Shown one piece after another: positions 36,921 through 64,000 of a stretch of DNA of 64,000 bases. The position numbers were made by a program, and so were the translations under genes. The notes below the pieces were generated by a model. The model was not told the origin of the DNA and searched no databases. It saw only the letters and a program-made list of their open reading frames with translations. Within the stretch, counting starts at the first letter, position 1. The number at the start of each line of letters is the position of its first letter. This DNA is from an uncultured Gammaproteobacteria bacterium. Its GTDB lineage: Bacteria; Pseudomonadota; Gammaproteobacteria; Pseudomonadales; Halieaceae. The stretch covers positions 388,671-452,670 of the forward strand of contig CAVQGV010000026.1 of NCBI GenBank assembly GCA_963712135.1, read 5' to 3'.

Positions 36921-36922
36921 CT

Positions 36923-39280: not shown

Positions 39281-39314
39281 GCAGTACACCTTTTGCGCAA
39301 ATCGGCGTCGTGGC

Positions 39315-41401: not shown

Positions 41402-41403
41402 CG

Positions 41404-42762: not shown

Positions 42763-42770
42763 AGCGCACA

Positions 42771-44350: not shown

Positions 44351-44354
44351 CGAC

Positions 44355-46247: not shown

Positions 46248-47450
46248 ATGAAGCAATATCTTTTCGGCACTTTAGTACTCATATTTGGCTTCTGCTTGTT
46301 GGTAGCCCTGTTCAATTACCGTGTCGACCCCTACGCAATTTATCACTACAAACAGGTGAATGCAGACTGGCTGAGTCGGATTGATCAGTTCCTCCATTTA
46401 CGGATAACAAAACCTTGGCACGTTGTGCAAATAAAACCTACGGCGATCATTGTGGGGACATCAAGATCTGCATCGGTGAACCCAATGCATTCCACCTGGC
46501 CCCAAAACGCTAGCTACAATCTGTCAATTCCCGGCCTGACGTCGTATGAAATGCTACGATTTATCGAGCATGCCCAGGCTAATGGACCTGTCAGCAAGCT
46601 GATGATTGGGTTAGATTTTGAGGCTTTCATTCATCCGGAGCCACGTTTCCAGTTTGGTTTTGAGGAGTCGCGGATGGCCCGTGATCCCGATGATCTGGCT
46701 TCGGCACATTTTATCTGGCAGCTCATGAGCGATATGAGAAACACATTGTTATCGATGTCGGGTATTAGCCAGAGTGTAATGGCGCTCACCGGCAGTGCGG
46801 AAGTGGGTCGTCGCTATTTTTCGGACGGGACTTGGGAAAGTACCCAATCAAGATTCACGGGTAGACCAGGTTATATCTATATTGGTAAGGAAACTGTATT
46901 TGATCAGCGAAATGAGAAGCTGAGCCTTGATAGAAATCTGGACAATTTCGCTGACATATTGCGCTTTTCCCATCGACAGAAAATAGAAACACGCCTGTTC
47001 ATCACACCCCAACATGTATTCATGATTGATCTTTGGTGGCGTCTGGGTTACAGAGAATTGTGGAAAGAGTTCCACCGCCGTCTGGTAGAGGTAAATGATG
47101 CGGTAGCTATTGAGATGGGAGTTGAGCCTTTTCCTATATTTGGATTTAATCATCTACGGGGGGTTGTCGATGAGCCTATTAGCAGTGCTCAGAATTCCAC
47201 TCGTTCCTTGTTCAGCGATGGCTTGCACTTTCGACCACGACTCGGGAAGCAAATCATGGATGCAGTGTGGACTGATGGTGCTGAGTTGGGAGCTAAACTG
47301 GATGTCAATTCAGTTAATTCCTATCTGTCTCAGGTAGAACAGTTGCATCATACATTCGAGTCTGCCAATACAGAACTCACTGCAGCGTCTACGTCGGGGG
47401 ATTTCCCCCGAATTGGAATAGCTGGCGGCGGTATTTGTGGCCGAAGCTAA
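46248..47450 (+). CDS. N-terminally membrane-anchored extracytoplasmic protein, candidate DltD/AlgJ-like O-acyl transfer partner of the MBOAT
   Basis: 400 aa; single N-terminal TM; IVGTSRSA segment in the position of the DltD GSSE-type nucleophile motif; divergently paired with the MBOAT gene; function is inferred from context. Confidence 0.35.
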   Translation: MKQYLFGTLVLIFGFCLLVALFNYRVDPYAIYHYKQVNADWLSRIDQFLHLRITKPWHVVQIKPTAIIVGTSRSASVNPMHSTWPQNASYNLSIPGLTSYEMLRFIEHAQANGPVSKLMIGLDFEAFIHPEPRFQFGFEESRMARDPDDLASAHFIWQLMSDMRNTLLSMSGISQSVMALTGSAEVGRRYFSDGTWESTQSRFTGRPGYIYIGKETVFDQRNEKLSLDRNLDNFADILRFSHRQKIETRLFITPQHVFMIDLWWRLGYRELWKEFHRRLVEVNDAVAIEMGVEPFPIFGFNHLRGVVDEPISSAQNSTRSLFSDGLHFRPRLGKQIMDAVWTDGAELGAKLDVNSVNSYLSQVEQLHHTFESANTELTAASTSGDFPRIGIAGGGICGRS

Positions 47451-47558
47451 TGACTTGATGCCAGAATCTTTTTGCCGCAAGGGCTCGCCCGCTGGTTTTC
47501 GCAGAAGCGCCGTTGAGTAGCGTATAATCAACTTTGTATACTTATAGGAGAAGAGTAT

Positions 47559-48104
47559 ATGAACAAGGGTGTGTTGATTGGAACCGTGTTAGGAGCTGGT
47601 CTGGCAACTGCCTACGGTGGTTTTGCAGGTTACCGGATGTTGAGCCAACCCGAGTACGCGCAGGTGGTGGATGTCACTACAGTCACCGAGAGCGTCAAAA
47701 CGCCGCGCGAGGAGTGTCGTGACCAGGTCGTGACACGGAAAAAGCCGGTCAAGGATACGCATCAGGTTACCGGCACCGTGCTTGGTGCAGTTGCCGGCGG
47801 CTTGCTAGGCGATGCGATCGGCGGCGGGGGCAAGAACACTGCAGCAAAAATTGCTGGTGCGGCGGCGGGTGGTTATGCCGGTAACAAAACGCAGGAAACA
47901 ATGCAGGAAAATGACACCTACCAGACAACGGAACGCGTGTGCAAGACGGTAGTTGATGTCAGCGAGCGCACCGTGGGTTACGATGTTAAATATCGCATCG
48001 GCGATGTCCCCGGTGAAGTGCGTATGGATCACGATCCCGGTGACACCATTCCACTGGAAGACGGAAAACTGGTGCTTTCCCGTGCCACTGCAGCAGCTGA
48101 TTGA
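47559..48104 (+). CDS. glycine-zipper (SlyB/YMGG-like) small outer-membrane/periplasmic protein
   Basis: N-terminal GxxxG repeats (GTVLGAGLATAYGG) and Gly-rich middle; 181 aa. Confidence 0.5.
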   Translation: MNKGVLIGTVLGAGLATAYGGFAGYRMLSQPEYAQVVDVTTVTESVKTPREECRDQVVTRKKPVKDTHQVTGTVLGAVAGGLLGDAIGGGGKNTAAKIAGAAAGGYAGNKTQETMQENDTYQTTERVCKTVVDVSERTVGYDVKYRIGDVPGEVRMDHDPGDTIPLEDGKLVLSRATAAAD

Positions 48105-48131
48105 AGGATTAGGTAAATTGGAGTTGAATCA

Positions 48132-48407
48132 ATGAGCACTATTGCGTATCGCGACTTCCTGCCACAGGAGACCCCGCGCAGTGGATTGTTTGGCGGCGTG
48201 GATTATTCCGATTTCAACAGCTGTGTGGCCGCCATGAATCACTGGCTGAAACAGAATCCAGTTAGCATAGTGCATGTCGAGACAGTTACCTTGCCTAATA
48301 TGCACAGTGTGTATGAAGATGGCTCCAACGATACAGAACTGCACACCACAGGTCGTACGGTCTGGTACCAGTTTGTGCGGCTGTGGTATTCGGTCGCAGC
48401 GATATAA
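48132..48407 (+). CDS. small conserved hypothetical protein, paralog B (91 aa, full-length form)
   Basis: Paralog of 34730-34918; shares the GLFGGVDYSDFNSCVAAMNHWL..VETVTLPNMHSV core. Confidence 0.45.
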   Translation: MSTIAYRDFLPQETPRSGLFGGVDYSDFNSCVAAMNHWLKQNPVSIVHVETVTLPNMHSVYEDGSNDTELHTTGRTVWYQFVRLWYSVAAI

Positions 48408-48465
48408 GCAGGTAACTATGAGCGCAGACTCGATGCCGTTGGCTGCGCCAGCCCAGTGCGGCCCC

Positions 48466-49844
48466 CTAGATGAGTTTTTTGGGATCTAGCAACGAGGCCA
48501 GTTTTTGCGGTGACAGATCCGTCATTTGTGCAGCTACTTCAATGATCGGGCGGCTTTCCTGGTAGGCGCGTTTGGCGATTTCAGCTGCCGTACTATAACC
48601 GATCTCACGATTCAGGGCGGTCACCAGGATGGGATTTCTCGCCAGGTTGGCCTCAATGTTTGCGCGATTGACCACAAAGTCAGCGATGCACTTATCCGCC
48701 AATGCTGTGCAACTGTTGGCGAGCAGGGTAATGCTCTGCAACAGGTTGTAGGCGATTACCGGCAGCATTACATTGAGTTGGAAATTGCCTGACTGGCCGG
48801 CCACGGTGATGGCAGAGTCGTTGCCAATCACCTGCGCCGCCGCCATTGCTACCGCTTCGGGAATGACCGGATTGACCTTGCCCGGCATGATACTGCTGCC
48901 CGGTTGCAGGGGTTTGAGGCTGATTTCACCCAACCCGGCCAACGGCCCGCTGTTCATCCAGCGCAGGTCATTGGCGATCTTCAGCAGTGCCACTGCCAGC
49001 GTCTTGAGCTGCCCGGAGAGCGCTACGGCAATGTCCTGGCTGGCGAGGGCGGCAAAGAAATTATCTGCCGGTTTGAACGTGGCTGCGCAACTCTCGTTGA
49101 GATAGAAACAGAAACGCGCGGCGAACTGCGGGTCCGCATTGACGCCCGTGCCGACGGCCGTGCCGCCCTGCGCCAACTGGCGCAGCTGTGCGCGACAGGC
49201 ATCGATGCGCTGTGCGGCCTGCACCAACTGTGCGCGCCAGCCAGAGAGCTCCTGCGCCAGGCTCAGCGGCATCGCATCCATCAGGTGCGTTCGCCCCGTC
49301 TTGATACAGTCGGCCAGGCCTGCTTCGCGTGCGGCGATGACTTCCGCCAGGCGGTGCAGGGCAGGCATGAGTGAATTGGCCAGCGCCAGCTCGGCACTGA
49401 CGTGAATTGCGGTGGGAATCACATCGTTGCTGCTCTGGCTGCAGTTCACATGGTCGTTGGGATGCACGGCCTGTCCCGACTGGCGGGAGGCGAGGGTGGC
49501 GATCACCTCGTTGGCATTCATATTGGTGCTGGTGCCCGAACCGGTCTGGAACACATCGACGGGAAACTGCTCCAGATGCTGTCCGTCGGCGATGGACAGT
49601 GCGGCAGCGGCGATGCTCGCCGCCAGTGCGGGGTCCAGCAGACCCAGCTCGGCATTGGCGCGCGCAGCAGCGGCTTTGATCAGGCCGAGAGTGGCAATAA
49701 AACCTGCTGGCATGGGCATGCCGCTGATCTGGAAATTCTCCACGGCGCGCTGTGTTTGCGCGCTATAAAGCGCTGTTGCGGGCACCTGCACCTCGCCCAG
49801 GCTGTCCTGTTCTATCCGCATATCACTCATCGCGATGGTCCTCG

Positions 49845-49848
<4 letters not shown>
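48466..49848 (-). CDS. fumC: class II fumarate hydratase
   Basis: 460 aa; GSSIMPGKVNP signature. Confidence 0.9.
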
Positions 49849-52527
<2,679 letters not shown>

Positions 52528-52559
52528 GGTGGCAGTCCTGTTCCGACAGTAGCGCACCG

Positions 52560-54825
52560 CAGTATAGAGGATAAACATGCTCCCCGCTGTCACTGTAATC
52601 CGGACGCGCCGACATGGCAGCGGGTACAGTACATACACCCCCGCCAATACCAGAGCCGCCCGGAGAGTTGGCCCCGGGATAGGGGATGTCCTAAACGGTC
52701 GCAAGCATTTCCCGTTGCCGTCGGTCCAGGGCACTCGTGCCAGATTCACGGGCCAACCAATTACCCCGTGATGTTTAGGGGAGCAGCAGACCGCTGTTGG
52801 GTACGACAAAGAGTCGGAGTCTAAACGGATACGTTTGAGTGTCAACAAGGGAACCAGGGAAGCTCGGCTGAGTAGGGTAGTCGCACAGCTAGGCCGGTCT
52901 TCGGACCGACCGAAGCACCTACCGATGAGGCAGCCGAGTGGCGGAGCACCCGTAGTAGTCGGAGACGTGAAAGACGTTCACATGGCGAAGGGGTGCAGGA
53001 TGATTCGTGTTTGGATGACTGAAGTGTTCTTTAATTTGGAGGCTTCCAAATGAACATCGAAGAAGTCCAGCGTAGGCTCTGGGAGCAATCGCAGGCCCAC
53101 AAGCAACACAGGGAGTCAGGAACACCGCTCTTTCCGACCAACCCGTACGGTGGCCGGATTCGGAACCTGATGGACCTGATGCACAATCCCACGTGGATTG
53201 CGGCAGCTTGTGACCGCGTGCTGAAACGCTCCCGTGGCAAAGCAGCAGGCGTAGACGGGGTGACGGCTCGCGAGTTCGCAAGAACCGTGAGTCCCGCCTC
53301 GAACAACTACGCCTGGAGTTGAAACGCGGTACGTATCGGCCTCTGCCGCTACGACGGGTGGAAATTCCCAAGGCTAACGGCAAAATGCGCCAGCTTGGAA
53401 TCCCCTGTCTGCGGGACAAGATCGTCCAAGAGGCAATACGTATGGCGTTGGAACCCATCTTCGAGGTCGAGTTCCATGACAACTCCTACGGGTTTCGGCC
53501 CAACCGGAGCACACACCACGCGGTGGCCCGTTGCCGCCATATGGCATTGACGGGCTTCACCTGGATCATCGAGGGCGATGTCAAGGCTTGCTTTGACGAA
53601 ATCTCGCACAAGGCGATCCTGCGGTGCGTCAGGGAAAAGGTGATGGACAACAAGTTTCTCGCTCTGATCCACCTCCTGTTGAAGGCGGGCGTGGAAATCG
53701 ACGGCGTCGTTCATCCGACCGACCAAAGGGGTTCCTCAGGGTGGCGTGGTCTCACCGCTCCTGGCCAACGTCGTGCTGAACAAATTGGATTGGTTTCTCC
53801 ATTCCAAGGGGTTCCACGGCAACGGCCAGCGAGAGGCGGTGCATCGCCACGGCCTGCCAAATGTCCGGTTCTGCCCGCTACGCCGACGATTGGTGCGTGT
53901 TTCTCACGCGCTGCAATCGGCAGCATGCGGAACGGCTACGGGACGAGATCCGCGACTTCCTTCGGGAAACCTGCGGGCTCGAACTGTCGGCCGAAAAGAC
54001 CCGGATTACCCACGTGAGAGACGGGTACGACTTTCTCGGATTCAACATCTCTGTAGGTGTTGGCAAATCCGGGAAGTTGGTGCCCAAAGTCAGGGTAGGC
54101 CGCAAGGCAATCACCAACATCCAGACTCGCTTGGGCGAGGCCCTTCGCTATCGCCCAATGCAGGAAAGCATCTCGGTCCGTCTTGTTCGTGCTTCGGCAG
54201 TCATTCGTGGCTGGTCGAACTACTTCAAGATTGCCCACAACTTCTCGCAAGTTGCTCACGGGCTGGACCACAAGGCTTTCTGGATCGCGGTGAAAGCGAT
54301 ATGTCGGAAGGAAGACATATCGACTGCCCAAGTGTCTCCGCAGGTACCGTCTTCGGAACACCATTGGGGTTCACGAAGACTGTACCCTGGCCCGCTTCCA
54401 AGATACGGCGTCGACGTACTACTGTCCGTCACCGGAACCGTATCAACCCGGCTGCAACCAGCCGTACCTGGAAGACGACGAATGGGAGGCGGCTTTCGTC
54501 TTCCACGAACGTCAACGGCCTGGTTGCGGAGACCTCAAGTGGAAGGCTTTGGTTCGCGACGGCTTTCATTGCCGTGGCTGCGCGGTCGTGGTCACATCCA
54601 AGACCTCGCACGCGGACCATATCGAACCTGTCAACCGCTTTGCCAACCTCGCAATGGCGAACGACTTGGACAACATCCAGACGCTTGTGTCTGCGATGTC
54701 ACAAGCTCAAAACTGCGAGGGAACAATGAGAATAGAATCATCTGGAAAGCCGGATGCTTGGAAACTTGCACGTCCGGTTTGGGGTTGGGGCCGGGGTGAA
54801 ACTCCCCGGCCTACACCACATGCCC
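52560..54825 (+). mobile_element. group II intron (domains I-IV with RT/maturase/HNH ORF); 3' end (domains V/VI) not confidently found and apparently cut at the GC break
   Basis: About 490 nt structured leader with hairpins before the IEP ORF; IEP has RT motifs (YRPLPLRRVEIPKANGKMRQLGIPCLRDKIVQ; YADDWCVF), maturase X and C-terminal HNH (HADHIEP...); only a weak GNRA-capped hairpin GGCCGGGG-TGAAAC-TCCCCGGCC at about 54806-54827. Confidence 0.6.
53050..54799 (+). pseudogene. group II intron-encoded reverse transcriptase/maturase/HNH endonuclease, in at least 4 frames
   Basis: RT domains 0-4 (53050-53760), RT5-7 with YADD (53861-...), X and HNH (to about 54730) are each in different frames. Confidence 0.7.
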
Positions 54826-55540
54826 TGGCGCTGCCGTCGAGTTCGAGCCCCCGGGCACATTCCCCGAGGTGACCGGCTATCGGGGCGGCGGCCCGCACGG
54901 CTTGGCCCCGGGCGAATGGACCGACGACACCAGCATGGCGCTGGCCGACCCCCCTGAGCGGCCCCATCCCGCAATCGCCCGGAGATACTTGGTCGGTACT
55001 TCACCATGCGCTAGTGCGCGGAACGCGGGGGCTGCCAGGCGGATTGACCCTTTCCAAGTTGCTCACGAAACATGGGCTAAAGTGAAGCAGCGCGATCAAC
55101 ATAGCTCGATGGGCTATCGAGCACGCCCGGGACGGGTTGGCCCGCCGATCTTCATCCCTCGCCCAATCGCAGCCGCTCCAGAAAATCGGACCGAATCCGG
55201 TCCCGGACGCCTCCCACAGCAGCGACTCCGCGAGGGCCTGCCCACGCCGGGCCTCCAACTCCGCCAGCCGGGCCGCATGGAACGGAGCACAGCATGGCTC
55301 GACCGATGGCCATCCAGGCAAGCTGGTACGACAATCCACAATATTATGACCTCGCGTATCGCTCAGGGCATGATCCGCGGAGGTGCCGTATCGGGTGGAT
55401 TGATCGGCTATTGCGGAGCCTGTTGCATTGCCGATGGATGGACCCGGCGTTGGACGTCGGGTTCGATAACACCGAAGGTGGCCTCGTACCGCTGGATGGT
55501 CATCATCAAGGCTTGCAACATCCGTTTCGCCGAGAAATAG
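54826..55540 (+). CDS. ADP-ribosylglycohydrolase-family protein, 5'-truncated at the GC break; later part of the ORF doubtful
   Basis: Frame begins mid-domain with ...VEFEPPGTFPEVTGYRGGGPHGLAPGEWTDDTSMALA, the conserved ARH motif, with no upstream N-terminus. Confidence 0.4.
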
Positions 55541-55767
55541 TTGGTGACGATCCGCTGGGTGATAGCAATCGGCACAGTCGGCACCCCGAACGGCTGGGGA
55601 TTGACGCCAAAGTCGAGGATCAGCTCCTCCGGCGTGCCGGTGACTCGGCAGAAGTTGTTGTACATTGGGACGGCCCTTGAGTCATCAATCCGGATCTGCG
55701 GTTGCTGCGCCTGATCCTGGGCAGGGGCCTGCGGGGAGGTGTCAGGATTGCTGCCGGGTTCGACCAT
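55408..55767 (-). CDS. DUF3467-like small protein
   Basis: 119 aa; RAVPMYNNFCRVTGTPEELILDFGVNP resembles the DUF3467 core; from memory. Confidence 0.35.
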   Translation of the reverse strand: MVEPGSNPDTSPQAPAQDQAQQPQIRIDDSRAVPMYNNFCRVTGTPEELILDFGVNPQPFGVPTVPIAITQRIVTNYFSAKRMLQALMMTIQRYEATFGVIEPDVQRRVHPSAMQQAPQ

Positions 55768-56179
55768 GAGTTGGATCCTTTATGTGAAGGTATTGAGTTT
55801 GACCGCCATCCATGGGCGGCCCCACGTATCGCGCTCTCATTGTAGACAGACCGCTTTGCGATGAGAATGGCGTCTACGGGGCTGACACTGGTAACCGATT
55901 GGCCGACCGGCTGTGGTACCGAAAACGGCAGAGCACGGTTCTCGGGGGTCGGCCTTGACTGCGCGAAACCAAAGACCGTATTCTCCCAACCCACGAACCA
56001 CACCATCCGCGGCAACCGCGCTGCCGCAGCGCGTCCAATCGCTCCCGAAGAAGCGAGTCTCCTTACCCCCCTTGGGATACTGGCTTTTCGGGAGCCTTTT
56101 GTTGCGCCCTTCGGTCGCAGGCGGGGCGTGCTTGTCTAGCAGAGTGCATACGGCAATCCATCCAGGGCGGTACGGCGAT

Positions 56180-57293
56180 TCAGTCCGCCGGAAGTCTCCC
56201 GGCTCTCCAGACCAGCCACGCGCCAAAACCAACGGCGCATCCGCCCAGATGCGCCAGGGCGGAAACATGGCCGATTCCCAAAAGCTGCTCGACGGCTAAC
56301 CAGCATTGCAGCAACAGCCAGAGCACCATCGCGACCCAAGCGGGCAGGTAGATCCAGCGGAACCAGAACCAGAATCCGCCACAGGAAGCCCAATCGGGCG
56401 TGTGGGTACCGCAAGGCGTAGAAGGCGATGGCCCCAGAAATGCCCCCGCTGGCACCGACGCACGGGACCGTGGCCCATGGATCGGCCAGGATATGCAACA
56501 GATCGCCGAACAGCGCCGCCCCTGCAATCAACAGTGCATAGCGCCACCGGCCAAGGTCGTCTTCCACGTTGTCGCCGAAGACCAATAGGAAATAGGCGTT
56601 GCCCAGCAAATGGAGGAAGCCCCCGTGCAGAAAGAAACTCGTCAGCAGCGTCAAGCCCCCGTGCCGCCCAAGCTGAGCGGGCACCAGGCCCCAATCGTCC
56701 ACAACGGGCTTCAAGTTCCACGCCGTCAGCGCGAACACCAGCGCCATGGCGGCGGCCAGCCCCCACGTCAACCAGGGCCAACAGCGGATCGGGTTGACGT
56801 CGAACTCGACGGGAAAGCCAAACAGAGCGGGAATCCACTTCCACTCCTCGTCCGGCGATTCCTCGCCAAGGCATGAGGCGCGTTCCTTGGCTTCGAGGGT
56901 CTTCAGTTGCATCAGGGCGATTTGTTCCCGTGCCTTCTCGGGCAGCCGCTCCCGGAGGCTCGGCTCTCGCTTGACGGAAGGGAGTTGCCCCGATTCCATG
57001 GGATCGAGCCACACGAATTGGCAAGCGGGGCACACATCGAGCGCCACTGAACCGACAGACGCGGGGACCGGCACCTCAGCCATCGCGCGGTGGCAGATCG
57101 GACATTCTTTTCCCGGCCAAGCGTCCTCCTGCCGTGCCCGCAGCCATAGGTCTTTCACCAATTTTTCGGGAACGAGTTTCCGCAGTACGGGAATGCCGAT
57201 GGCACGGCCTTTACACTTCGGACAATCGAAGGCAACTCCCTGCGGAATCGCTGTCCGTGCCAGCCGCTGATTGCAACGAGGGCAAAGAGCCAT
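56180..57293 (-). pseudogene. rhomboid-family intramembrane serine protease with N-terminal double zinc-ribbon, frameshift about 56400-56500
   Basis: CPRCNQRL...CPKC and CPICHRA...CPACQ zinc ribbons; rhomboid motifs HLLGN and GASGGISG; catalytic His region AHLGG lies in a separate frame (56180-56527). Confidence 0.6.
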
Positions 57294-58900
57294 CGCCGGT
57301 CCTCCGCTGCTATTTCTCTGGGGAGCACCATGATTGTCTTCTCCGCCCGGCCGCCGCGTCCGCTCTTGTCCCAGACGATCAGCGTCACGCGGTACTTGCC
57401 CGGCTGGTCGAAGGTGTGCTTCGGTTGGGCCGTGACTTCCGGGATGCCGTCGCCGAAGTCCCATAGCCGCTCGACGATCGCCGCCCGCCGGACGCGAGTT
57501 GCACTGGAACTGAGCCGGCTCCCCGGCCCGGATCGTCTCCGGCACGACGGAAGTCGGCCACCGGCGGCGGACTGGGCAAGCGGCTTGGCCGCCGGGAGCC
57601 GGTCGTTCTTGTTCCCCTCGACCTTGCAGTCGGTGAACTCCAGGGCCGTGTACTGCGGAGGGCCGACGACGGCGGCCTGCCCGTTGCCGGTGATCGCGCA
57701 GCGGAGGAAGGCCAGAGCAATCGACGTCCCGTCCGCCGAGCTGCACGCCGTAGCCGCCGTTGTTGCGGAAGGCGCAATCCTCGAAGACCAGTCCCCGGCA
57801 GGCGCCGTTGGTGCGGAAGCCGTGGCCGCTGTCCTGGGGATACCGGGCCTGTGGAGTCGCCGCGGACCGTGTTCTCGAAGACGCAGCGGTAGAAGTAGTG
57901 ATGGGCGATGCCGCCGGTCTCGCCCTGGAACTGGGCACCCCACTGGGCGCAGTCGCGGACCGTGTTGTAGCCCCAGTAGACGTTGTTCTTGACCGGCTTG
58001 TTGGAGACCGACAGGCCGATATGCGCGCCCCGCTTGACGACGTTGTCGGTGACCACCACATCGCGGGCGATGATCTCGATGCCCAGGAACTTGAGCGTGC
58101 CGTCGTCGGTGCCGATCACGTTGCGCCGCACGGCCGATTGGTCGCCGCTGGTCGACGCTGAGCCAGTGGTCGACGACGTTGTCCTCGATGAGCGATCGCG
58201 GGCAGCCGCCCCAGATCTCGATGCCCAGCCCTTCGCCGCCGGAGCCGCTGACGCGGTTGTTGCGGATGACCAGCTCGGCCGAGTGGTCGCCGAAGATGCC
58301 GCCCCGGCCGGTGTTGTGGATCATGTTGCCGAGCACCTGGTTCCGTACCGAGCCCCAGGCCAGGCGGATGCCGCCGCCGTACTCGGCCTCCAGGCCGATG
58401 TTCTCGATCCGGCAGTCGGTGATGCGGCTGTCGGTCACGCCGCCTTCCATGCGTCGGGTTGTGGCCGGAGAAGAGGATGCGCGTGCGGGCCCCAGGTCTC
58501 GGCCTTGCAGGTTGCGGATCGTCAGGTGGTGGAGCCAGAGCCGCCGCGAGTCGCTGCCGCTGATGCCCTGGTGGACCAGCGGATTGTTCTGGCCGTCGAG
58601 CGTCATGTGGGCGATCTCCACGTCCTCGCAGCCGCTGAGGCTGATGAGGACGCCGGGCTTGGTGCCCTTGTAGACCAGCCGCGTCTTGTCCTGCCCGGCG
58701 CCGAGCAGCTTGATCCCCGACTTGGGCCGGATCGGCTCGGCCAGCTCGAACGTGCCCTCCGGCAGGCGGACGGTGTCGCCCGGTGCAGCCTGTCGAATGG
58801 CGGCGGCGATGCTGTGGGAGCCGAATCCCTTGGGCTCAATGACCGCTGAGGGCTTGGCCGCGACAACGAGACGCAGAACATGACTATGGGCAGCATCCCT
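57155..58900 (-). pseudogene. secreted right-handed beta-helix (PbH1 repeat) protein with C-terminal PKD domain, frameshifted
   Basis: Parallel beta-helix repeats (NIG..A.YGGGI; GNMIHNTGRGGIFG; IRNNRVSGSGGEG) and PKD motif WDFGDG...YRVTLIVWD; N-terminal part lies in another frame. Confidence 0.5.
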
Positions 58901-58905
58901 GCACT

Positions 58906-59154
58906 CTAATGAGGGCAGCTCGCGGTGTCAAACAGCCGGCCATCCGCTTCGGCGAGTTCCTGCCGGACCTCCATGCGAATCTCCGCAGAGCTGGTTCCGT
59001 CCCTTTCCCCGGCATATCCCCCAGAAATTGGTTTCTTGGCCGCCTGGAAGGCGTGCTCCACGGTCGGGTATTCGATGCGCTCAAAGGTAATCGGCGCAGG
59101 GTGGAAGTTCGACAGGAAGCTGTACTCTCCCTGGAAACGGTCGATTACTTGCAT
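58906..59154 (-). pseudogene. NADAR-domain (YbiA-like) protein, truncated or frameshifted
   Basis: MQVIDRFQGEYSFLSNFHPAPITFERIEYPTVEHAFQAAK is the NADAR N-terminal core; ORF ends after about 80 aa. Confidence 0.45.
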
Positions 59155-59382
59155 CGTTGGCTTCACGGAATTGACGGGAATCGAACCGCGGGCACCGCTA
59201 TTGTACGAAGATCGGCGTTGGAAACAGGAAGCCCGGAGGCCGGGATCGCTCCCAGCCTCCGGGCATCGCATTCGATCAGAGCAGGTTCACGACCCGCTCG
59301 GCCAGGCCCTTCTCGCCCAGCACGACGTTCAGCTTGCCGCTGGCGGCGACCTTCTCCAGGACTTCCAGCTCCCGGAGCCGCA

Positions 59383-60399
59383 TCAGCGTCGGGTTGTCCT
59401 GCCAGCAGCTTGGCCGTGTTGGCCTGGCTGCGCATGGCCGCCGTCTCCTCGCGGCGGACGATGAGGTTGGCCTCGGCCGCCTTCTTGGCCTCCGTGACCT
59501 TGTTCATCAGGTCCTTCATGTCGCCCGGCAGGATCACGTCGCGGATGCCGACCGAGACGATCTCCAGACCCAACTCGGCCACCCGCTGGCGGACGATCTC
59601 CTCCAGCTCGCTCGGCCACGGCGTCCTTGTCGGCCAGGAACGGGTCGAGTTCGCGGGCGCCGACCACCGCCCGCAGGGCCAACTGCGCCTCGCGGTACAG
59701 CGCCTGGCGGGCGTCGTCGGCCGCGCTGACCGCCTTGCGGGCGTCGACCACGCGGTAGGTGACCACCGCGTTCAGGCGCAGCGTGACCTTGTCGGCCGTC
59801 ATGATCTCCTGGCCGCCGACGTCGAGCATCGTCTCGCGCAGGTCGACCGGCACGAGCTTGACCTCGGCCACGTTCTTCCAGAAGGCGTACTGGCCCGGCG
59901 GCAGCGTCTCGACGTAGTCGGCCGTCCACGAACAGCACGCCCACGTGGCCCTGCTCGACCGCGCAGACGTCCAGCACGCGGTCGGCCATGCGCCGAGCGG
60001 ACGATCACCTGGAGGTCCTCGTGCTCGAAGCGGACCTTGCGGGCGTCGACCACCTCGACGCGCCACCTCGCGGAAGCCGGTCCAGTAGGCGTACAGGCCC
60101 GGCGGCAGGATGTGGCTGAAGCGGCCGTCGATCCAGACCAGCGCCCGCTCGTAGTCCTTCAGGTCCAGCACCACGGCGCGGTCCTCCAGCGCACCCGACT
60201 TGACGATCACGTCGAGCTTCTCGTGGACCAGCCACGGGTCGCGCTGCGAGACGACCTCGACCTTGACCTTGCCCAGCGGGTCGAAGAACCAGTGGCGGCC
60301 CGCGCCGAGCAGGCCCTGGAACTCGCCGTCGCGGAAGTACAGGCCCATTTCGTAGCTGCGGATCTTGATGGTCTTCAGCACAGCACAGTCATCCTTCAC
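59383..60399 (-). pseudogene. SPFH/band-7 domain protein with 2-3 N-terminal repeat modules, frameshifted
   Basis: SPFH core (VDLRETMLDVGGQEIMTADKVTLRLNAVVTYRVVD) preceded by repeated approximately LPPG(L/Q)YA(Y/F)W...EV modules, one of them in another frame (59799-60053). Confidence 0.45.
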
Positions 60400-60827
60400 C
60401 TTCCTTCCTGCGGCCTATTGACGGCCGTCTTCGTTTCGTTTCAGCGTCGTGTCAGGCAACGCCGTCGGGCGGCGGAACCAGCGGCGATCACACGGACAAG
60501 TGCGGAGTGTCGTTTGAGCATCCACGTAGCCTTGCGGCGGCACGGCAGCTTCCGCTCGGCTCGTCGCCGCCGGGGCAAGCCCCGACGCGAGTCGCCGGAC
60601 ATCCGCTGCCGCTTGCCGAAGGCCGGTGGAAGCGGTATCCACGCACTGCATGGCACTCGGCCGTGCTGCCACCGGCAGCCGCGTGCCGGTCGGGCGCCGA
60701 TTCCTCCGGGAGCCGCCCATGGGCGGACTGCCCGGAATCCTCGACGCCGCCGGTCGCTCGCCGCCGGTGGCCGATCACACGTTGGCCCGCCTCCCTCGGG
60801 CCGCTTGGAGCAGGTTTTCAGCCTGCG

Positions 60828-60905
60828 GTGTTGGTACGGGAGTCGAACCCGCGACAGCCAGATTCATGGTCTGGTGCTCTACCACTGAGCTAACCTCGGT
60901 TGACA
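60828..60905 (-). tRNA. tRNA-like gene (T-loop GGGTTCGACTCC, D-arm AGCTCAGTGGTAGAGC); acceptor pairing imperfect, anticodon loop CCATGAA (possibly CAT)
   Basis: Manual fold; the acceptor stem could not be paired cleanly. Confidence 0.35.
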
Positions 60906-61009
60906 CGACCATCGGTCAGAACCCATGTACGGAACACACGTCGCCAACCGCCTCGTTGGAGGACAGGGCGACGTGCGCCGCTGGCCCGGCCGTATCATTG
61001 CTTCCAAAG

Positions 61010-61081
61010 AGACGCCGGTGGGAGTCGAACCCACTTGAAGCTGCTTTGCAGGCAGCCGCCGTGCCGTCTGGCTCCAGCGCC
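61010..61081 (-). tRNA. tRNA-Cys (GCA)
   Basis: Acceptor GGCGCTG/CGGCGTC, anticodon loop CTGCAAA, T-arm GTGGG-TTCGACT-CCCAC. Confidence 0.7.
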
Positions 61082-61091
61082 ACGTTGTCAG

Positions 61092-61164
61092 TGTCCTCGC
61101 CAGGAATCGAACCTGGTCTTCGACCTTCGCAGGGTCGCGTGCGAATCCGGCACACTCCGAGGAC
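61092..61164 (-). tRNA. tRNA-Arg with anticodon GCG as read (G34 unusual)
   Basis: Acceptor GTCCTCG/CGAGGAC; anticodon stem CGACC/GGTCG, loop CTGCGAA. Confidence 0.5.
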
Positions 61165-61179
61165 GTATTCTCGTTCAGC

Positions 61180-61251
61180 GCCCCGCCGAGGAATCGAACC
61201 TCGTCTTGCAGTTTCGAAGACTGCCGTGCTGATCCGGCACACTCGCAGGGC
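61180..61251 (-). tRNA. tRNA-Arg (TCG)
   Basis: Acceptor GCCCTGC/GCGGGGC; loop CTTCGAA; T-arm CGAGG-TTCGATT-CCTCG. Confidence 0.65.
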
Positions 61252-61259
61252 ATGTCAAG

Positions 61260-61331
61260 TGTCTCGACCAGGAATCGAACCTGGATCTGGACCTTCGGAG
61301 GGTCCTATGCGATCCGTTACACCATCGAGAC
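61260..61331 (-). tRNA. tRNA-Arg (CCG)
   Basis: Acceptor GTCTCGA/TCGAGAC; anticodon stem GGACC/GGTCC, loop CTCCGAA. Confidence 0.65.
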
Positions 61332-61337
61332 ATTCAG

Positions 61338-61409
61338 CATCCCGACCTGGAGTCGAACCAGGACCAGGACCTTAGGAGAGCCCCGTGCGATCCGCTACAC
61401 CATCGGGAC
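61338..61409 (-). tRNA. tRNA-Arg (CCT), tentative
   Basis: Acceptor GTCCCGA/TCGGGAT; anticodon stem with G.U pairs, loop CTCCTAA. Confidence 0.5.
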
Positions 61410-61420
61410 ATACACACCAG

Positions 61421-61493
61421 AGCCGACGACTGGATTTGCACCAGCATCGATGCGGTTTACAAAACCGCCGCCTCTCTGTTCGGCCACGTCGGC
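61421..61493 (-). tRNA. tRNA-Thr (TGT)
   Basis: Acceptor GCCGACG/CGTCGGC; anticodon stem GCGGT/ACCGC, loop TTTGTAA; T-loop TGCAAAT. Confidence 0.6.
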
Positions 61494-61500
61494 AATCAAG

Positions 61501-61571
61501 CAGGAGCGCGAGGAGTCGAACCCCGTCCGGCGGCTTTGGAGACCGCCTGCTCTCCCAGGAGCACACTCCTG
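61501..61571 (-). tRNA. tRNA-Trp (CCA), tentative
   Basis: Acceptor AGGAGTG/CGCTCCT; loop CTCCAAA; followed by hairpin GGCCCCCGG..CCGGGGGCC (61571-61608), which is probably the terminator of the adjacent HNH gene. Confidence 0.4.
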
Positions 61572-61615
61572 TATCGGCCCCCGGCCTTGCGGACCGGGGG
61601 CTCTTGGCGTAACGA

Positions 61616-62214
61616 CTACTCTCGCAGCGTCACGTTCCAGTACGCTTCGCTGACGAACTTCGACCAGCTTTCGATCCGCACGTCGTGGTCCGCGTACAGC
61701 GGCTTCCACGTCGGCCGGACCGGCTGCTTGCGCAGCCGCATCCGCGCCTGCTCCGGCGTGCGGTCGGCCTTCCGCTTGTTGCAGGCCATGCACGCCAGCA
61801 CGCAGTTCTCCCAGCTCGACACGCCACCCTGCGACACGCGGCACGACGTGGTCGATCGTCAGTTCCTCGCTGCCCGGCTGCGCACCGCAGTACTGGCAGG
61901 TGTAGTGGTCACGCTTGAAGATGTTCCGCCGGCTGAAGGTCACTGGGCCACCGGCAGCCGGTCGTAGCCGCGTCAGCGCGACCACCTCCGGCACCCGCAG
62001 CCGGAACCGCACCGCCTGGATGAACGGCTCGCCGTCGCGCGGCCGCAGCTTCGACCAGTCCTCCCAGGTGTAGAGCTGGTAGTCGGCCGGGTCCACGACG
62101 CGGGCCGACTCGTTCCACAACAGCACCAGCGCCCGCGCCACGGTGGCCACGTTCACCGGCTGCCAGTTGCGGTTCAGGACCAGCGTCGGCCGCTGGAGTA
62201 TTCTCGGGGTCATG
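61616..62214 (-). pseudogene. HNH homing-type endonuclease, one frameshift
   Basis: HYTCQYCG...IDHVVP (first frame, start ATG 62212-62214) and ...[20 protein letters not shown] (second frame) form the HNH motif; embedded in the tRNA array. Confidence 0.6.
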
Positions 62215-62234
62215 GTCACGTCCTTTCCATCAAG

Positions 62235-62309
62235 GGTGTCCGGGCGGAGTCGAACCCCCACCTTCTGGTTCACAGCCAGCCGTGCAGAAACCGCTACACC
62301 ACAGACACC
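62235..62309 (-). tRNA. tRNA-His (GTG) with encoded G-1
   Basis: G-1 pairs with C73; acceptor GTGTCTG/CGGACAC; loop CTGTGAA; one T-stem mismatch. Confidence 0.6.
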
Positions 62310-62350
62310 ATATGCGGGCCGCCGTCCTACCGGGCGACGGCCCGCTCGAA

Positions 62351-63166
62351 TCAGTCGAGAAACGCCAGATGCCGCATGGAGGCCGCCTGGCTCTCGGTGT
62401 TCGGCACGACCCGGTGCCACCCGTTGAGCTTGACCGTCTTGTGGTCCGGGTGGCGAATCTTGCCGCGAACGTACACTCCGGCGTCCCGCCGCATCACGCG
62501 CCACGGCAGCCGCTTCTTGGCCGGGTTCTCGGCGATCAGTCGCCGATACGCCGACTCGCTGATTCCCTGCGGGTACTCGAAGCAAACGTAGACGTTCACT
62601 CCGCCGCTCCGGTACAGGAACTCAGCCCAATGCGGCTTGCCGCGTCCGCGTGCCAGCGGTTCATTGCTCAGCACCAGCTTCGGGTCCACAACCAGGTCCG
62701 GCTCGGGGATGAAGAACCATTCCCCCTGCCGGATGAAAGCCTTGTTGTGGCGCCGGTTGCGGTGCCGCGCCTTCAGTCCCTTGCGGGCCTGGGCCGCCAG
62801 CACCTCCGAGGGCTTGAGGGCCTCCATGGCGGTGCGGACGGTGGCCACGCCCGACGTCTCCGGCACGGCCGCAGCGAACCAGTCCCGCTCGTCGTGGCCG
62901 CAGAGGAACTTGTGCTTCTCCTCGCGGTGGCCGTCAGGCTCGCGGACGAGCAGCAACAGGTGCCGCTGGCCGGGCTGGATGTCCAGGACCTCCAGTTCCC
63001 GCTCCGCGTCTTCGCCGAGGGTGACATCGAAGAACGGGCCATGCCCGTCCCGGCCGATGTCCACGGCGAAGCCGGTGAAGCGGGAGCGCCGAATCGTCGA
63101 CCGCACGTTCACCTTGAGCCGTGCGCCCATGCGGGCGAACTGCTTCTCCAGTAACGTGGTATCCAT
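62351..63166 (-). CDS. hypothetical protein (phage-like context)
   Basis: 272 aa from MDTTLLEKQ; no recognised domain; in-frame upstream extension not used. Confidence 0.3.
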   Translation of the reverse strand: MDTTLLEKQFARMGARLKVNVRSTIRRSRFTGFAVDIGRDGHGPFFDVTLGEDAERELEVLDIQPGQRHLLLLVREPDGHREEKHKFLCGHDERDWFAAAVPETSGVATVRTAMEALKPSEVLAAQARKGLKARHRNRRHNKAFIRQGEWFFIPEPDLVVDPKLVLSNEPLARGRGKPHWAEFLYRSGGVNVYVCFEYPQGISESAYRRLIAENPAKKRLPWRVMRRDAGVYVRGKIRHPDHKTVKLNGWHRVVPNTESQAASMRHLAFLD

Positions 63167-63323
63167 AACCTTTCCTTTGTGTTGAGGATCATGGCGGCGC
63201 ACGACGCCGCCATGAACGATTGTCAGTCTCGAACAACAGACGCAGGTCGGATTGTTCTGGGCATCAGCATCGCAACACTCCTTTCGCCATAGGGACACGT
63301 CGTCCCACGCAAAGGTTCTCCAG

Positions 63324-63395
63324 CACCCCGACCAGGAGTCGAACCTGGAACACCTCGTTAGAAGCGAGGCATGATTTCCGTTTCACCATCGGGGC
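63324..63395 (-). tRNA. tRNA-Arg (TCT)
   Basis: Acceptor GCCCCGA/TCGGGGT; anticodon stem CCTCG/CGAGG, loop CTTCTAA. Confidence 0.6.
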
Positions 63396-63415
63396 ACATA
63401 ATCCGGCACACCAAG

Positions 63416-63502
63416 CGGAAGGCAAGGGAGTCGAACCCTCATCTCCACGGGGGAGAACCGCGTTAGCAGAGCGGCCCGGCCAACCGTATCCGGCTACCTT
63501 CC
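63416..63502 (-). tRNA. tRNA-Ser (GCT), type II long variable arm
   Basis: Acceptor GGAAGGT/GCCTTCC; loop CTGCTAA; 87 nt with extra arm. Confidence 0.55.
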
Positions 63503-63528
63503 GTAATCATCGATCCATTTCGATCCAG

Positions 63529-63599
63529 TGGACCGCCGGGGAATCGAACCCCGATTTCCTGGGTGCAAACCAGGCGTCTTCCCGTTGGACCAGCGGCCC
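63529..63599 (-). tRNA. tRNA-Ala (TGC)
   Basis: Acceptor GGGCCGC/GCGGTCC; anticodon stem CCTGG/CCAGG, loop TTTGCAC. Confidence 0.65.
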
Positions 63600-63611
63600 G
63601 TATCATCCGAG

Positions 63612-63682
63612 AGGTCCGTCCGGGAATTGAACCCGGTCTTCCTCCTTACCACGGAGGTGTGCTGCCAAAACACCTACAGACC
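63612..63682 (-). tRNA. tRNA-Thr (GGT)
   Basis: Acceptor GGTCTGT/ACGGACC; anticodon stem CCTCC/GGAGG, loop GTGGTAA. Confidence 0.6.
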
Positions 63683-63691
63683 ATTCGCAAG

Positions 63692-63764
63692 TGATCCCGG
63701 ATGGAGTCGAACCATCACTTTCCTGGTTGTCACCCAGGCGTCTTTGCCGTTGGACCACGGGATC
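63692..63764 (-). tRNA. tRNA-Val (GAC)
   Basis: Acceptor GATCCCG/CGGGATC; anticodon stem CCTGG/CCAGG, loop GTGACAA. Confidence 0.65.
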
Positions 63765-63772
63765 GTTCACAG

Positions 63773-63846
63773 TGACCGAGGTGGGAGTCGAACCCACAGG
63801 CACGAGGCTCTCGACCTCGCCGCTTTGCCAATTTGCGTACCCGGTC
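63773..63846 (-). tRNA. tRNA gene, anticodon uncertain (loop reads TCGAGAG; GAG?)
   Basis: Acceptor GACCGGG/CTCGGTC and T-arm GTGGG-TTCGACT-CCCAC are good; anticodon arm non-canonical (C33). Confidence 0.4.
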
Positions 63847-63850
63847 AGTG

Positions 63851-63917
63851 GCGGGTCCGGGGGTCGCACCCGGCGGTCCAGGCTTATGAGGCCCGGCTGA
63901 GCACTGGCCCACCCGCG
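63851..63917 (-). tRNA. tRNA-Met/Ile (CAT)-like, acceptor imperfect
   Basis: Loop CTCATAA; T-arm CCGGG-TGCGACC-CCCGG; acceptor 6/7 bp. Confidence 0.4.
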
Positions 63918-63923
63918 CAAGTT

Positions 63924-63990
63924 GCAGGCCCCGGTATCGAACCGGGCGCACCGGCCTTATGAGAGCCAGTTGGGCACCTGCCGCGCCTGC
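63924..63990 (-). tRNA. tRNA (CAT)-like
   Basis: Loop CTCATAA; T-arm CCCGG-TTCGATA-CCGGG; near the window end. Confidence 0.4.
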
Positions 63991-64000
63991 AATAAGTGGC

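What the first reader, a model, noticed from the sequence alone, without database searches (positions are those of the whole stretch)
52528..54825. Group II intron with RT-maturase-HNH ORF inserted immediately 5' of acnA, its IEP riddled with frameshifts
The intron begins about 30 bp upstream of the acnA start codon. It is on the opposite strand, so it is intergenic rather than exon-inserted. The encoded protein has all RT blocks, the YADD motif, domain X and an HNH nuclease, but split over at least 4 frames. I could not identify the GUGYG 5' end or a canonical domain V, so the element may be a degenerate or truncated copy.
Basis: partly seen in the sequence, partly recalled or inferred. Interest (0 to 1): 0.5.

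Follow-up and report, generated by a model that had tools for sequence, protein, structure and literature searches.

The report
Truncated group II intron, sequencing-error frameshifts
This is a genuine but ordinary group II intron copy missing its first ~257 bases; its "frameshifts" are single-base sequencing errors that also break the neighbouring housekeeping genes, and it sits next to acnA because two unrelated pieces of DNA are joined there, not because it inserted there.

Summary
A group II intron is present, at 52635-54819 (+), not 52528-54825. It matches nt 258-2438 of full-length ~2.44-kb introns from Planctomycetota/Thermoguttaceae contigs (87% DNA identity). The 5' GUGCG and first ~257 nt are absent.

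The RT-maturase-HNH ORF has five frameshifts, all single-base indels. Correcting them gives a stop-free 558-codon ORF: TIGR04416 354 bits, 89% identity to intact proteins, dN/dS 0.15-0.23 as among intact copies.

The same errors break acnA (7 insertion events from 50793) and genes to the right (rhomboid, Band_7, HNH, NADAR). The 9 kb before 50793 has none. The frameshifts are therefore consensus errors in a poor stretch of a public 452,670-nt contig, not IEP decay.

The intron did not target acnA. Its 3' exon is an ADP-ribosylglycohydrolase fragment in sense. Its truncated 5' end abuts Halieaceae-like intergenic DNA within 10 nt (52625-52634). Gene order, taxonomic affinity and tetranucleotide signature all change there. 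The join is either a misassembly or the edge of a foreign block; I could not decide which. Interest is low.

The parts
52635..54819 (+). Group II intron fragment, equivalent to nt 258-2438 of the 2438-nt full-length relative L001:3327-5764
   Evidence: blastn gives 87.3-87.7% identity over ~2190 nt to L001, L004 and L005. Relatives start with GTGCG about 257 nt further 5'. All copies end at ..CCTACACCAC and their flanks diverge from there.
52635..53049 (+). Remaining 3' part of domain I plus domains II-III and the 5' side of domain IV (RNA, non-coding)
   Evidence: Conserved with relatives. Three window-specific indels at 52667, 52712 and 52808. No Rfam D1-D4 model hits this lineage, even in the intact relative.
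53050..54729 (+). Intron-encoded protein ORF (RT, domain X/maturase, HNH), interrupted by 5 single-base indels: a deletion after 53285 and insertions at 53721, 53874, 54332 and 54687
   Evidence: Frame map against the intact protein P0001 is 1>3>1>2>3>1. Indels located against 4 relatives. The stitched 558-aa protein scores RVT_1 131.8 bits, HNH 34.6 bits and GIIM 22.8 bits against a 23.0 cutoff, so just below it; TIGR04416 354.4 bits against a 300 cutoff; 89% identity and 100% coverage to intact 556-559 aa proteins. The repaired ORF has no internal stop and dN/dS 0.15-0.23.
54747..54780 (+). Domain V (34 nt, AGC triad at 54748-54750, GAAA loop, two U.U mismatches in the upper helix that are invariant in the family)
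   Evidence: RF00029 at 52.3 bits, gathering score 40. Invariant in L001 and L004-L006. The same hit occurs in the intact relative.
54783..54819 (+). Domain VI with a candidate bulged branch-point A at 54813; the 3' splice site follows 54819 (intron ends ..AC)
   Evidence: RF00029 alignment. The conservation boundary lies exactly at 54819.
54820..54946 (+). 3' exon: fragment of an ADP-ribosylglycohydrolase gene in the same orientation as the intron
   Evidence: Pfam ADP_ribosyl_GH profile positions 13-57 of 287, 27.2 bits against a 26.2 cutoff, at residues 3-42 of the frame starting at 54821. No further match in any frame up to 55440.
52625..52634 (.). Junction between Halieaceae-like (gammaproteobacterial) DNA and the truncated intron
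   Evidence: Homology to L212 ends at 52624 and intron homology begins at 52635. Tetranucleotide signature correlates 0.80-0.97 among left segments but only 0.41-0.62 between left and right.
52528..52624 (-). Native upstream (promoter) region of acnA, conserved in gammaproteobacterial relatives
   Evidence: Alignments to L088, L089, L170 and L171 and to L212.
49845..52527 (-). acnA (aconitate hydratase A), 891 codons, broken by window-specific insertions at 50793, 51265, 51749 (2 nt), 52093, 52114 and 52432. The 3' 940 nt are clean.
   Evidence: Frame map against E. coli AcnA and against L088 and L089 AcnA. Indel list against two relatives. The stitched protein is 94% identical to the intact P0121.
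50793..64000 (.). Indel-noisy stretch of the contig, from the first error in acnA to at least ~62 kb
   Evidence: Zero frame breaks in the 8 genes or gene parts at 41.6-50.79 kb, against 15 indel events in 50793-54819. Pfam domains are split or cut in rhomboid, Band_7, HNH and NADAR. One indel in rhomboid against L172.

Best explanation
Window 52635-54819 (+) is the 3' 2,185 nt of a ~2.44-kb bacterial group II intron. It belongs to an endonuclease-positive (HNH) lineage that is abundant in Planctomycetota/Thermoguttaceae metagenome contigs.

How intact relatives work is established knowledge of the family, not tested here:
- They are transcribed within a host gene, and the RT-maturase-HNH protein is translated from domain IV.
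- That protein helps the ribozyme splice through the domain VI branch A.
- The lariat RNP then reverse-splices into DNA, the HNH domain nicks the opposite strand, and the intron is copied in by target-primed reverse transcription.

The copy as deposited keeps part of domain I, domains II-IV with the ORF, and a canonical domain V/VI and 3' splice site. It lacks the 5' splice site and the first ~257 nt of domain I, so as written it cannot splice or move.

Its five frameshifts are not biological decay. They are single-base consensus errors, mostly insertions, in a low-quality stretch of a long-read-type contig. That stretch begins abruptly at 50793 inside acnA, crosses the junction and continues through the genes to the right.

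The intron did not insert next to acnA. It had inserted, in sense, into an ADP-ribosylglycohydrolase gene, a fragment of which is still attached as its 3' exon. It was brought next to acnA as part of a larger block of planctomycete-like DNA. That happened either through a misassembly (somewhat favoured) or through a real acquisition of foreign DNA at a naturally variable site upstream of acnA.
For: Identity of the element:
- RF00029 scores 52.3 bits against a gathering score of 40.
- DNA identity is 87% over 2.19 kb to elements bounded by GTGCG...CCAC.
- The stitched IEP scores TIGR04416 354 bits and has RVT_1 and HNH above threshold, with GIIM at 22.8 bits against a 23.0 cutoff. It is 89% identical to intact proteins over 100% of its length.

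5' truncation:
- Nothing in the 64-kb window matches intron nt 1-257.

Frameshifts are errors:
- The IEP has 4 single-base insertions and 1 deletion.
- The acnA region has 7 insertion events between 50793 and 52550, all relative to two relatives. Substitution identity to L088 is the same (90.6%) in the clean and noisy halves.
- Stitched AcnA is 94% identical to an intact homologue.
- Eight genes or gene parts at 41.6-50.79 kb are full-length in a single frame. At the noisy rate of 15 events per 4.0 kb, about 34 events would be expected there and none is seen (my calculation).
- Rhomboid, Band_7, HNH and NADAR domains are split or cut.
- The repaired IEP has no internal stop and dN/dS 0.15-0.23, against 0.13-0.21 among intact copies.
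- A related contig from the same ERZ250394xx series (L212) also has split acnA, fumC, AI-2E, Ppx and Amt genes.
- The frameshifted rhomboid product itself is on record from the 452,670-nt source contig.

Not an acnA insertion:
- The 3' exon matches ADP_ribosyl_GH positions 13-57.
- Gene order matches Halieaceae-like contigs up to 52624, and four of the five relatives carry a TLP1-like gene, AI-2E and AMP-binding genes upstream instead.
- The tetranucleotide signature changes at the junction.
- IEP and rhomboid relatives are Planctomycetota, whereas AcnA and isocitrate lyase relatives are Halioglobus/Halieaceae.
Against: - I have no reads, so coverage and base quality are inferred, not seen.
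- The noise starts 1.8 kb to the left of the junction rather than at it, which no simple assembly scenario predicts exactly.
- The errors are not mainly in homopolymers, and I could not identify the sequencing platform.
- If the copy really is 5'-truncated it is dead, so some of the IEP indels could be real.
- The junction falls just beyond the stretch conserved among acnA relatives, at a site that varies naturally (L171 has a RES-Xre module there). That fits a real recombination site as well as a chimera.
- No clean contig with the same gene order as the right-hand side was found, so there is neither an empty-site nor a full-length reference for this particular copy.
Confidence: 0.85

Rival explanations
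1. One reading: a degenerate intron copy whose IEP has truly decayed by frameshifts, leaving a dead retroelement beside acnA.
For: The copy as deposited lacks its 5' 257 nt, so it would be under no selection. Most bacterial group II intron copies are truncated or inactivated (PMC4424553).
Against: - Indels of the same type and density hit acnA, a conserved TCA-cycle gene, and every larger gene to the right.
- They begin abruptly at 50793 after more than 9 kb with none.
- The repaired ORF has no stop codon, and its dN/dS equals that among intact copies.
- According to PMC4424553, degenerated IEPs are rare in bacteria.
Confidence: 0.07
2. The junction at 52625-52634 is an assembly artefact. A chimeric read or a graph misjoin linked a Halieaceae-like chromosome to planctomycete DNA from the same sample. 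On this reading both the 5' truncation and the acnA adjacency are artefacts.
For: - Gene order, taxonomic affinity and tetranucleotide signature all switch within 10 nt.
- Both organism types occur in one sample series: L212 is ERZ25039462, and the intron relatives L001-L005 are ERZ25039466-519.
- The junction lies inside a low-quality stretch of the contig.
- The closest relative contig, L212, has the normal neighbours.
- There are no target-site features at the junction.
Against: - The contig is deposited in both NCBI and ENA as a single 452,670-nt sequence.
- The noise begins 1.8 kb before the junction.
- The breakpoint coincides with a naturally variable boundary upstream of the acnA promoter.
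Confidence: 0.5
3. The junction is real. A Halieaceae-like bacterium, perhaps a rare strain, acquired at least 11 kb of planctomycete- or phage-like DNA upstream of acnA. That block includes the tRNA array, and one of its edges lies in an already truncated intron.
For: - The site is variable among relatives: TLP1-like gene versus RES-Xre toxin-antitoxin module.
- The right end carries a 15-tRNA array, an HNH gene and a protein family found in viral contigs within tRNA arrays, which is typical mobile-island content.
- A low-abundance strain would also explain a noisy consensus.
Against: - Cross-phylum blocks this large, with rhomboid, beta-helix/PKD and SPFH genes, are unusual.
- No second contig shows the junction.
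- The window does not return to gammaproteobacterial gene order before its end.
Confidence: 0.35
4. A solo reverse transcriptase or retron-like remnant with no intron RNA.
For: Weak sub-threshold similarity of the RT domain to retron and Drt models.
Against: RF00029 scores above its gathering score. TIGR04416 scores above its cutoff, while the retron models score far below theirs. The non-coding 5' and 3' parts are collinear with full-length introns at 87% DNA identity.
Confidence: 0.01

Closest known systems
Bacterial mobile group II introns with RT-X-D-En (HNH) intron-encoded proteins (classes A, B, ML or CL)
   Same: - Domain V/VI consensus, 3' AY end, and an ORF in domain IV with RT blocks, YADD, domain X and HNH.
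- Relatives have 5' GUGCG.
- Relatives sit in or next to other mobile DNA (IS66 transposase genes in L004-L006), as is usual for bacterial introns (PMC4424553).
   Different: - This copy lacks the first ~257 nt.
- The class was not assigned. The En domain excludes classes C-F (PMC4424553). Solved IEPs (GsI-IIC, LtrA, T.el4h-type) all score alike at 163-186 bits.
- No Rfam D1-D4 model matches this lineage.
The planctomycete intron family represented by L001 (ERZ25039471 contig_9680; its IEP, P0020, is named by NCBI 'MAG: group II intron reverse transcriptase/maturase [Thermoguttaceae bacterium]')
   Same: 87% DNA identity over nt 258-2438, an identical D5/D6, and 87-89% protein identity.
   Different: Different flanks, 5' truncation, and single-base indels attributable to sequence quality.
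5'-truncated or fragmented group II intron copies in bacterial genomes
   Same: Loss of the 5' end with the 3' end retained. Truncations are frequent in bacteria (PMC4424553; PMC4028801). L006 is another truncated and rearranged copy of this family.
   Different: Here the truncation point coincides with a compositional and taxonomic breakpoint inside a low-quality stretch. It may therefore be an assembly breakpoint rather than incomplete reverse transcription or a deletion.
Gene-fragmenting indel errors in long-read assemblies
   Same: Many genes split by single-base indels, with otherwise highly conserved protein segments (PMC12007338; PMC9262707).
   Different: The noise is regional, absent from the first 50.8 kb of the window. 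It is insertion-biased and not mainly in homopolymers. The platform is unknown.

Membership tests
Group II intron (ribozyme part) | Domain V: a 34-nt hairpin with the AGC catalytic triad, a 2-nt bulge and a GNRA loop | tested here: met
   RF00029 at 52.3 bits against a gathering score of 40. D5 is 54747-54780, AGC is 54748-50, and the loop is GAAA. Two U.U mismatches in the upper helix are invariant in the family.
Group II intron (ribozyme part) | Domain VI with a bulged branch-point A 7-8 nt from the 3' splice site, and a 3' end of AY | tested here: met
   The RF00029 alignment places the bulged A at 54813. The intron ends ..CCAC at 54819, where the flanks of all copies diverge. Branching itself was not tested.
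Group II intron (ribozyme part) | 5' splice-site consensus GUGYG | tested here: not met
   Absent from the window. Homology starts at intron nt 258. Full-length relatives begin GTGCG. The copy is therefore a fragment of a member, not a complete member.
Group II intron (ribozyme part) | Six-domain secondary structure with a complete domain I (EBS1/EBS2, tertiary-contact motifs) | tested here: inconclusive
   No Rfam D1-D4 model hits the window or the intact relative L001 at E<=1. I did not build a structure. The first ~257 nt of domain I are missing.
Group II intron-encoded protein (TIGR04416, RT/maturase) | RT domain with YADD plus maturase domain X, scoring above the equivalog cutoff | tested here: met
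   The stitched protein scores 354.4 bits against a 300 cutoff, RVT_1 131.8 bits and GIIM 22.8 bits, just under the 23.0 cutoff. This holds only after 5 single-base corrections.
En-plus group II intron lineages (A, B, ML, CL) | C-terminal HNH endonuclease domain | tested here: met
   Pfam HNH 34.6 bits against a 21.4 cutoff, at residues 507-556. According to PMC4424553, classes C-F lack this domain. The exact class was not determined.
Retrohoming insertion at the acnA locus | Both exon flanks belong to the target locus, and the insertion is at an IBS-bearing site | tested here: not met
   The 3' flank is an ADP-ribosylglycohydrolase fragment. The 5' flank meets gammaproteobacterial DNA at intron nt 258. 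Four of the five relatives of the acnA locus carry other genes there.
Retron / solo RT | An RT without flanking intron RNA domains, scoring above retron model cutoffs | tested here: not met
   retron_St85_RT scores 58.8 bits against a 235 cutoff. Intron RNA domains are present.

The most novel reading that the evidence does not exclude
The junction is real. On that reading, a Halieaceae-like gammaproteobacterium carries at least 11 kb of planctomycete- or phage-like DNA just upstream of the acnA promoter. The block includes a 15-tRNA array, an HNH gene and an uncharacterised 315-aa protein family that also sits inside tRNA arrays of viral contigs. One edge of the block lies in a 5'-truncated group II intron. 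This would be a cross-phylum mobile tRNA island.
Probability: 0.3. Interest if true: 0.4.

Novelty: new member of a known kind. Interest (0 to 1): 0.12.

Why it matters
For intron biology it matters little. This is one more fragmentary copy of an abundant, already annotated planctomycete group II intron family.

The practical value is as a caution. In this 452,670-nt public contig, everything from window position 50793 onward carries about 3-4 single-base indels per kb. A taxonomic and compositional breakpoint lies at 52625-52634. Any call of a pseudogene, a decayed element or an insertion site in this stretch should be checked against reads first. If the junction proved real, the tRNA-array island next to acnA would be the more interesting object.

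Tried and rejected
- **Rfam D1-D4 models, to place the 5' boundary and assign a class.** There is no hit in the window, and none in the intact relative either, so this is uninformative.
- **GC3-phase Viterbi and ORF/GC3 filtering as a reference-free frameshift census.** Both were too noisy at 55-60% GC. I dropped them in favour of homologue-based frame maps.
- **Metagenome scan with the 119-aa ORF, and the contig of a 75%-identical rhomboid, to find a clean contig with the same gene order as the right-hand side.** Only the query genes themselves matched.
- **Exact-protein look-ups of window genes, to retrieve the source contig.** Positions were not on record. Cluster look-ups gave only the contig length and the sources.
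- **The 41-nt 'orphan' at 52594-52634.** It has no repeat, adapter-like or inverted match anywhere. Most of it later proved to be gammaproteobacterial intergenic DNA, through L212.
- **PDB sequence search, to assign an intron class.** All solved IEPs score alike.
- **Considered and rejected.** Programmed frameshifting is implausible: there are five shifts in both directions, and the same pattern occurs in unrelated genes. A retron or solo RT is excluded.
Full report
**1. What is at the coordinates**

A scan of the whole window against Rfam gives one group II intron hit. RF00029 matches 54745-54819 on the + strand at 52.3 bits, above its gathering score of 40 (same hit in the local scan). The hit covers several features:
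- Domain V is 54747-54780 (AAGCCGGAUGCUUGGAAACUUGCACGUCCGGUUU), with the AGC triad at 54748-54750.
- Domain VI has a bulged A at 54813.
- The 3' end is ..CCUACACCAC, finishing at 54819.

Upstream, the three forward frames together contain a complete RT-maturase-HNH protein cut into six segments. Stitched, it is 558 aa:
- Pfam: RVT_1 131.8 bits, HNH 34.6 bits, GIIM 22.8 bits. GIIM is just below its 23.0 cutoff.
- NCBIfam: TIGR04416 'group II intron reverse transcriptase/maturase' 354.4 bits against a cutoff of 300.
- It is 75-89% identical over 90-100% of its length to 120 listed proteins, most of them intact at 556-559 aa. Sources name some of them as Thermoguttaceae or Planctomycetota.

**2. 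True boundaries: the copy is 5'-truncated**

I fetched contigs that encode intact relatives. By blastn the window matches them only over 52635/52640-54819.

Among themselves the relatives L001 and L004/L005 stay similar for a further ~257 nt, up to a canonical GTGCG. This puts the full-length elements at L001:3327-5764 (2438 nt) and L004:3354-5765. The window therefore holds intron nt 258-2438. Nothing elsewhere in the 64 kb matches nt 1-257, and there is no second copy.

At the 3' end all copies are identical through ..CCTACACCAC and differ immediately afterwards. The 3' splice site thus follows 54819. The two U.U mismatches in the upper helix of domain V are invariant in the family, so they are not damage.

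Rfam's D1-D4 models hit neither the window nor the intact relative. They therefore say nothing about domain I.

**3. The frameshifts**

Mapping the intact protein P0001 onto the window gives the frame order 1>3>1>2>3>1. A five-way DNA alignment shows that each change is a window-specific single-base indel:
- one deletion after 53285;
- four insertions, at 53721, 53874, 54332 and 54687.

Three more small indels lie in the non-coding 5' part, at 52667, 52712 and 52808.

Removing the four inserted bases and restoring the deleted one gives a 558-codon ORF with no internal stop. Its dN/dS against the intact relatives is 0.15-0.23. Among the intact relatives themselves it is 0.13-0.21. So there is no sign of relaxed constraint.

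**4. The same damage is in acnA and in the genes to the right, but not in the genes to the left**

acnA lies at 49845-52527 on the - strand and is also split across frames. Against two close relatives (L088 at 90% and L089 at 84% DNA identity), every indel in this region is an insertion in the window. They fall at 50793, 51265, 51749 (2 nt), 52093, 52114 and 52432, plus 52550 in the leader. Substitution identity to L088 is 90.6% in both the clean part (48723-50780) and the noisy part (50781-52527). Stitched AcnA is 94% identical over 891 aa to an intact homologue.

By contrast, the genes at 41.6-49.83 kb each match their L089 orthologue as one full-length, single-frame alignment. These are an AMP-binding enzyme, an SDR, CMAS, MBOAT, two small genes and fumC. 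The last 940 nt of acnA are clean as well.

The noisy stretch 50793-54819 has 15 events in 4.0 kb. At that rate about 34 events would be expected in the preceding 9.2 kb, and none is seen (my calculation). The first 50 kb also contain eleven ORFs of about 440-716 aa.

To the right of the intron, Pfam domains are split between frames or cut short:

| Gene | Profile positions matched |
|---|---|
| Rhomboid | 6-94 in one frame, 97-138 in another |
| Band_7 | 20-122 in one frame, 130-175 in another |
| HNH | 1-24 of 47 |
| NADAR | 8-51 of 163 |

The rhomboid gene differs from a 77%-identical relative by exactly one indel. The relative's C-terminus matches my stitched version.

The frameshifted rhomboid product itself (P0241) and ten intact window proteins from both sides of the junction are on record from a single 452,670-nt NCBI/ENA contig. 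The window is therefore a slice of that public contig, errors included.

A related 93-kb contig, L212, is 92.8% identical to window 36393-52624. It comes from sample ERZ25039462, in the same ERZ250394xx-5xx series as the intron relatives. It has its own split acnA, fumC, AI-2E, Ppx and Amt genes. This data series evidently yields indel-noisy, long-read-type contigs.

Gene-fragmenting indels are a recognised property of such assemblies (PMC12007338; PMC9262707). I conclude that the IEP frameshifts are consensus errors. This is inferred, because I could not see reads.

**5. Why the intron is next to acnA**

The left side of the window is Halieaceae-like:
- AcnA's named relatives are Halioglobus/Halieaceae.
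- The isocitrate lyase at the left end clusters with Halioglobus sp..
- The gene order from the AMP-binding gene to acnA matches L088, L089, L171 and L212.

In L088, L089, L170 and L212, acnA is preceded by a TLP1-like gene, and in the longer of these contigs by AI-2E and AMP-binding genes. In L171 it is preceded by a RES-Xre toxin-antitoxin pair. None of these genes is in the window.

Gammaproteobacterial homology runs to 52593 in the more distant relatives and to 52624 in L212. Intron homology starts at 52635. The junction is therefore confined to 52625-52634.

The tetranucleotide signature correlates at 0.80-0.97 among the left-hand segments. Between left and right (52.6-64 kb) it correlates at only 0.41-0.62.

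On the 3' side of the intron, the frame starting at 54821 reads CPGAAVEFEPPGTFPEVTGYRGGGPHGLAPGEWTDDTSMALA. This matches Pfam ADP_ribosyl_GH profile positions 13-57 at 27.2 bits, against a cutoff of 26.2. No frame continues the match.

So the intron had inserted, in sense, near the start of an ADP-ribosylglycohydrolase gene, of which only a fragment remains. It reached acnA as part of a larger block. It is not an insertion 5' of acnA, and it is not simply 'intergenic'.

**6. Is the junction real?**

I could not decide this.

For a misassembly:
- Gene order, taxonomic affinity and composition all switch within 10 nt.
- The junction lies inside the low-quality stretch.
- Both organism types occur in one sample series.
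- The closest related contig has the normal neighbours.

For a real junction:
- The break lies just beyond the conserved acnA promoter block, at a site that varies naturally among relatives.
- The right-hand DNA looks like a mobile island.

I put misassembly at about 0.5 and a real acquisition at about 0.35. Either way, the 5' truncation may be the breakpoint of the join rather than a property of the retroelement. Truncated copies are in any case common in bacteria (PMC4424553; PMC4028801), and L006 is another rearranged copy of this family.

**7. Comparison with known families**

The element is a fragment of a standard endonuclease-positive bacterial group II intron. The HNH domain excludes classes C-F (PMC4424553). 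I did not assign the exact class, because solved IEPs from classes IIA, IIB and IIC all score alike.

Other copies of this family sit inside IS66 transposase genes. This matches the usual association of bacterial introns with mobile DNA.

**8. Verdict**

This is a real, ordinary intron fragment. The striking features were the 'riddled' ORF and the position at acnA. They are explained by local sequence quality and by a join between unrelated DNA. Interest is low.

Noticed in passing
window 61009-63917 (-): An array of 15 tRNA genes: Cys, five Arg isoacceptors, two Thr, Trp, His, Ser, Ala, Val, Leu and Met. It is interrupted by a frameshifted HNH-endonuclease ORF (about 61.6-62.2 kb) and an intact 315-aa ORF (62351-63298) with no Pfam or NCBIfam hit. 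Relatives of the 315-aa protein (33-51% identity) occur in 39 IMG/VR viral contigs. In several of these they also lie within tRNA arrays (L178: 21 tRNAs; L174: 6).
   Followed up: partly
window 50793 onward, compared with 1-50792: Sequence quality changes abruptly. There are no frame-breaking indels in at least 9 kb before 50793, then about 3.7 single-base indels per kb, almost all insertions and mostly not in homopolymers. The onset is 1.8 kb to the left of the compositional and taxonomic junction at 52625-52634, which I cannot explain with a simple assembly scenario.
   Followed up: partly
L004:3354-5765, L005 and L006 (relatives): Copies of the same intron family are inserted in IS66-family transposase genes, with DDE_Tnp_IS66 split on both sides. 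L006 is 5'-truncated and rearranged: intron nt ~54-254 lie about 1 kb away. In L004 the last bases of the 5' exon (GCTCT) are complementary to an invariant AGAGC in domain I (window 52652-52656). This is a possible EBS1, which I did not test.
   Followed up: no
L171:324-1336 (relative of the acnA locus): In one Halieaceae-like relative, a RES-Xre toxin-antitoxin pair occupies the position upstream of acnA, where other relatives have a TLP1-like gene. The site is therefore naturally variable.
   Followed up: no
window 11703-11865 (-): A cobalamin riboswitch (RF00174, 56.8 bits) lies upstream of two overlapping same-strand ORFs (10400-11131 and 10845-11603). These could mark an isolated frameshift in the otherwise clean left part.
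   Followed up: no
window 54947-55407 (+): About 460 nt lie between the ADP-ribosylglycohydrolase fragment and the 119-aa ORF (55408-55767, -). They have no recognisable coding content in any frame. Homology of 80 metagenome loci to the 119-aa gene stops at about 55387, so this segment is specific to this locus.
   Followed up: partly
window 53827-53829: A window-specific in-frame 3-nt insertion in the IEP, between RT blocks. Unlike the single-base indels, it looks like natural variation.
   Followed up: no
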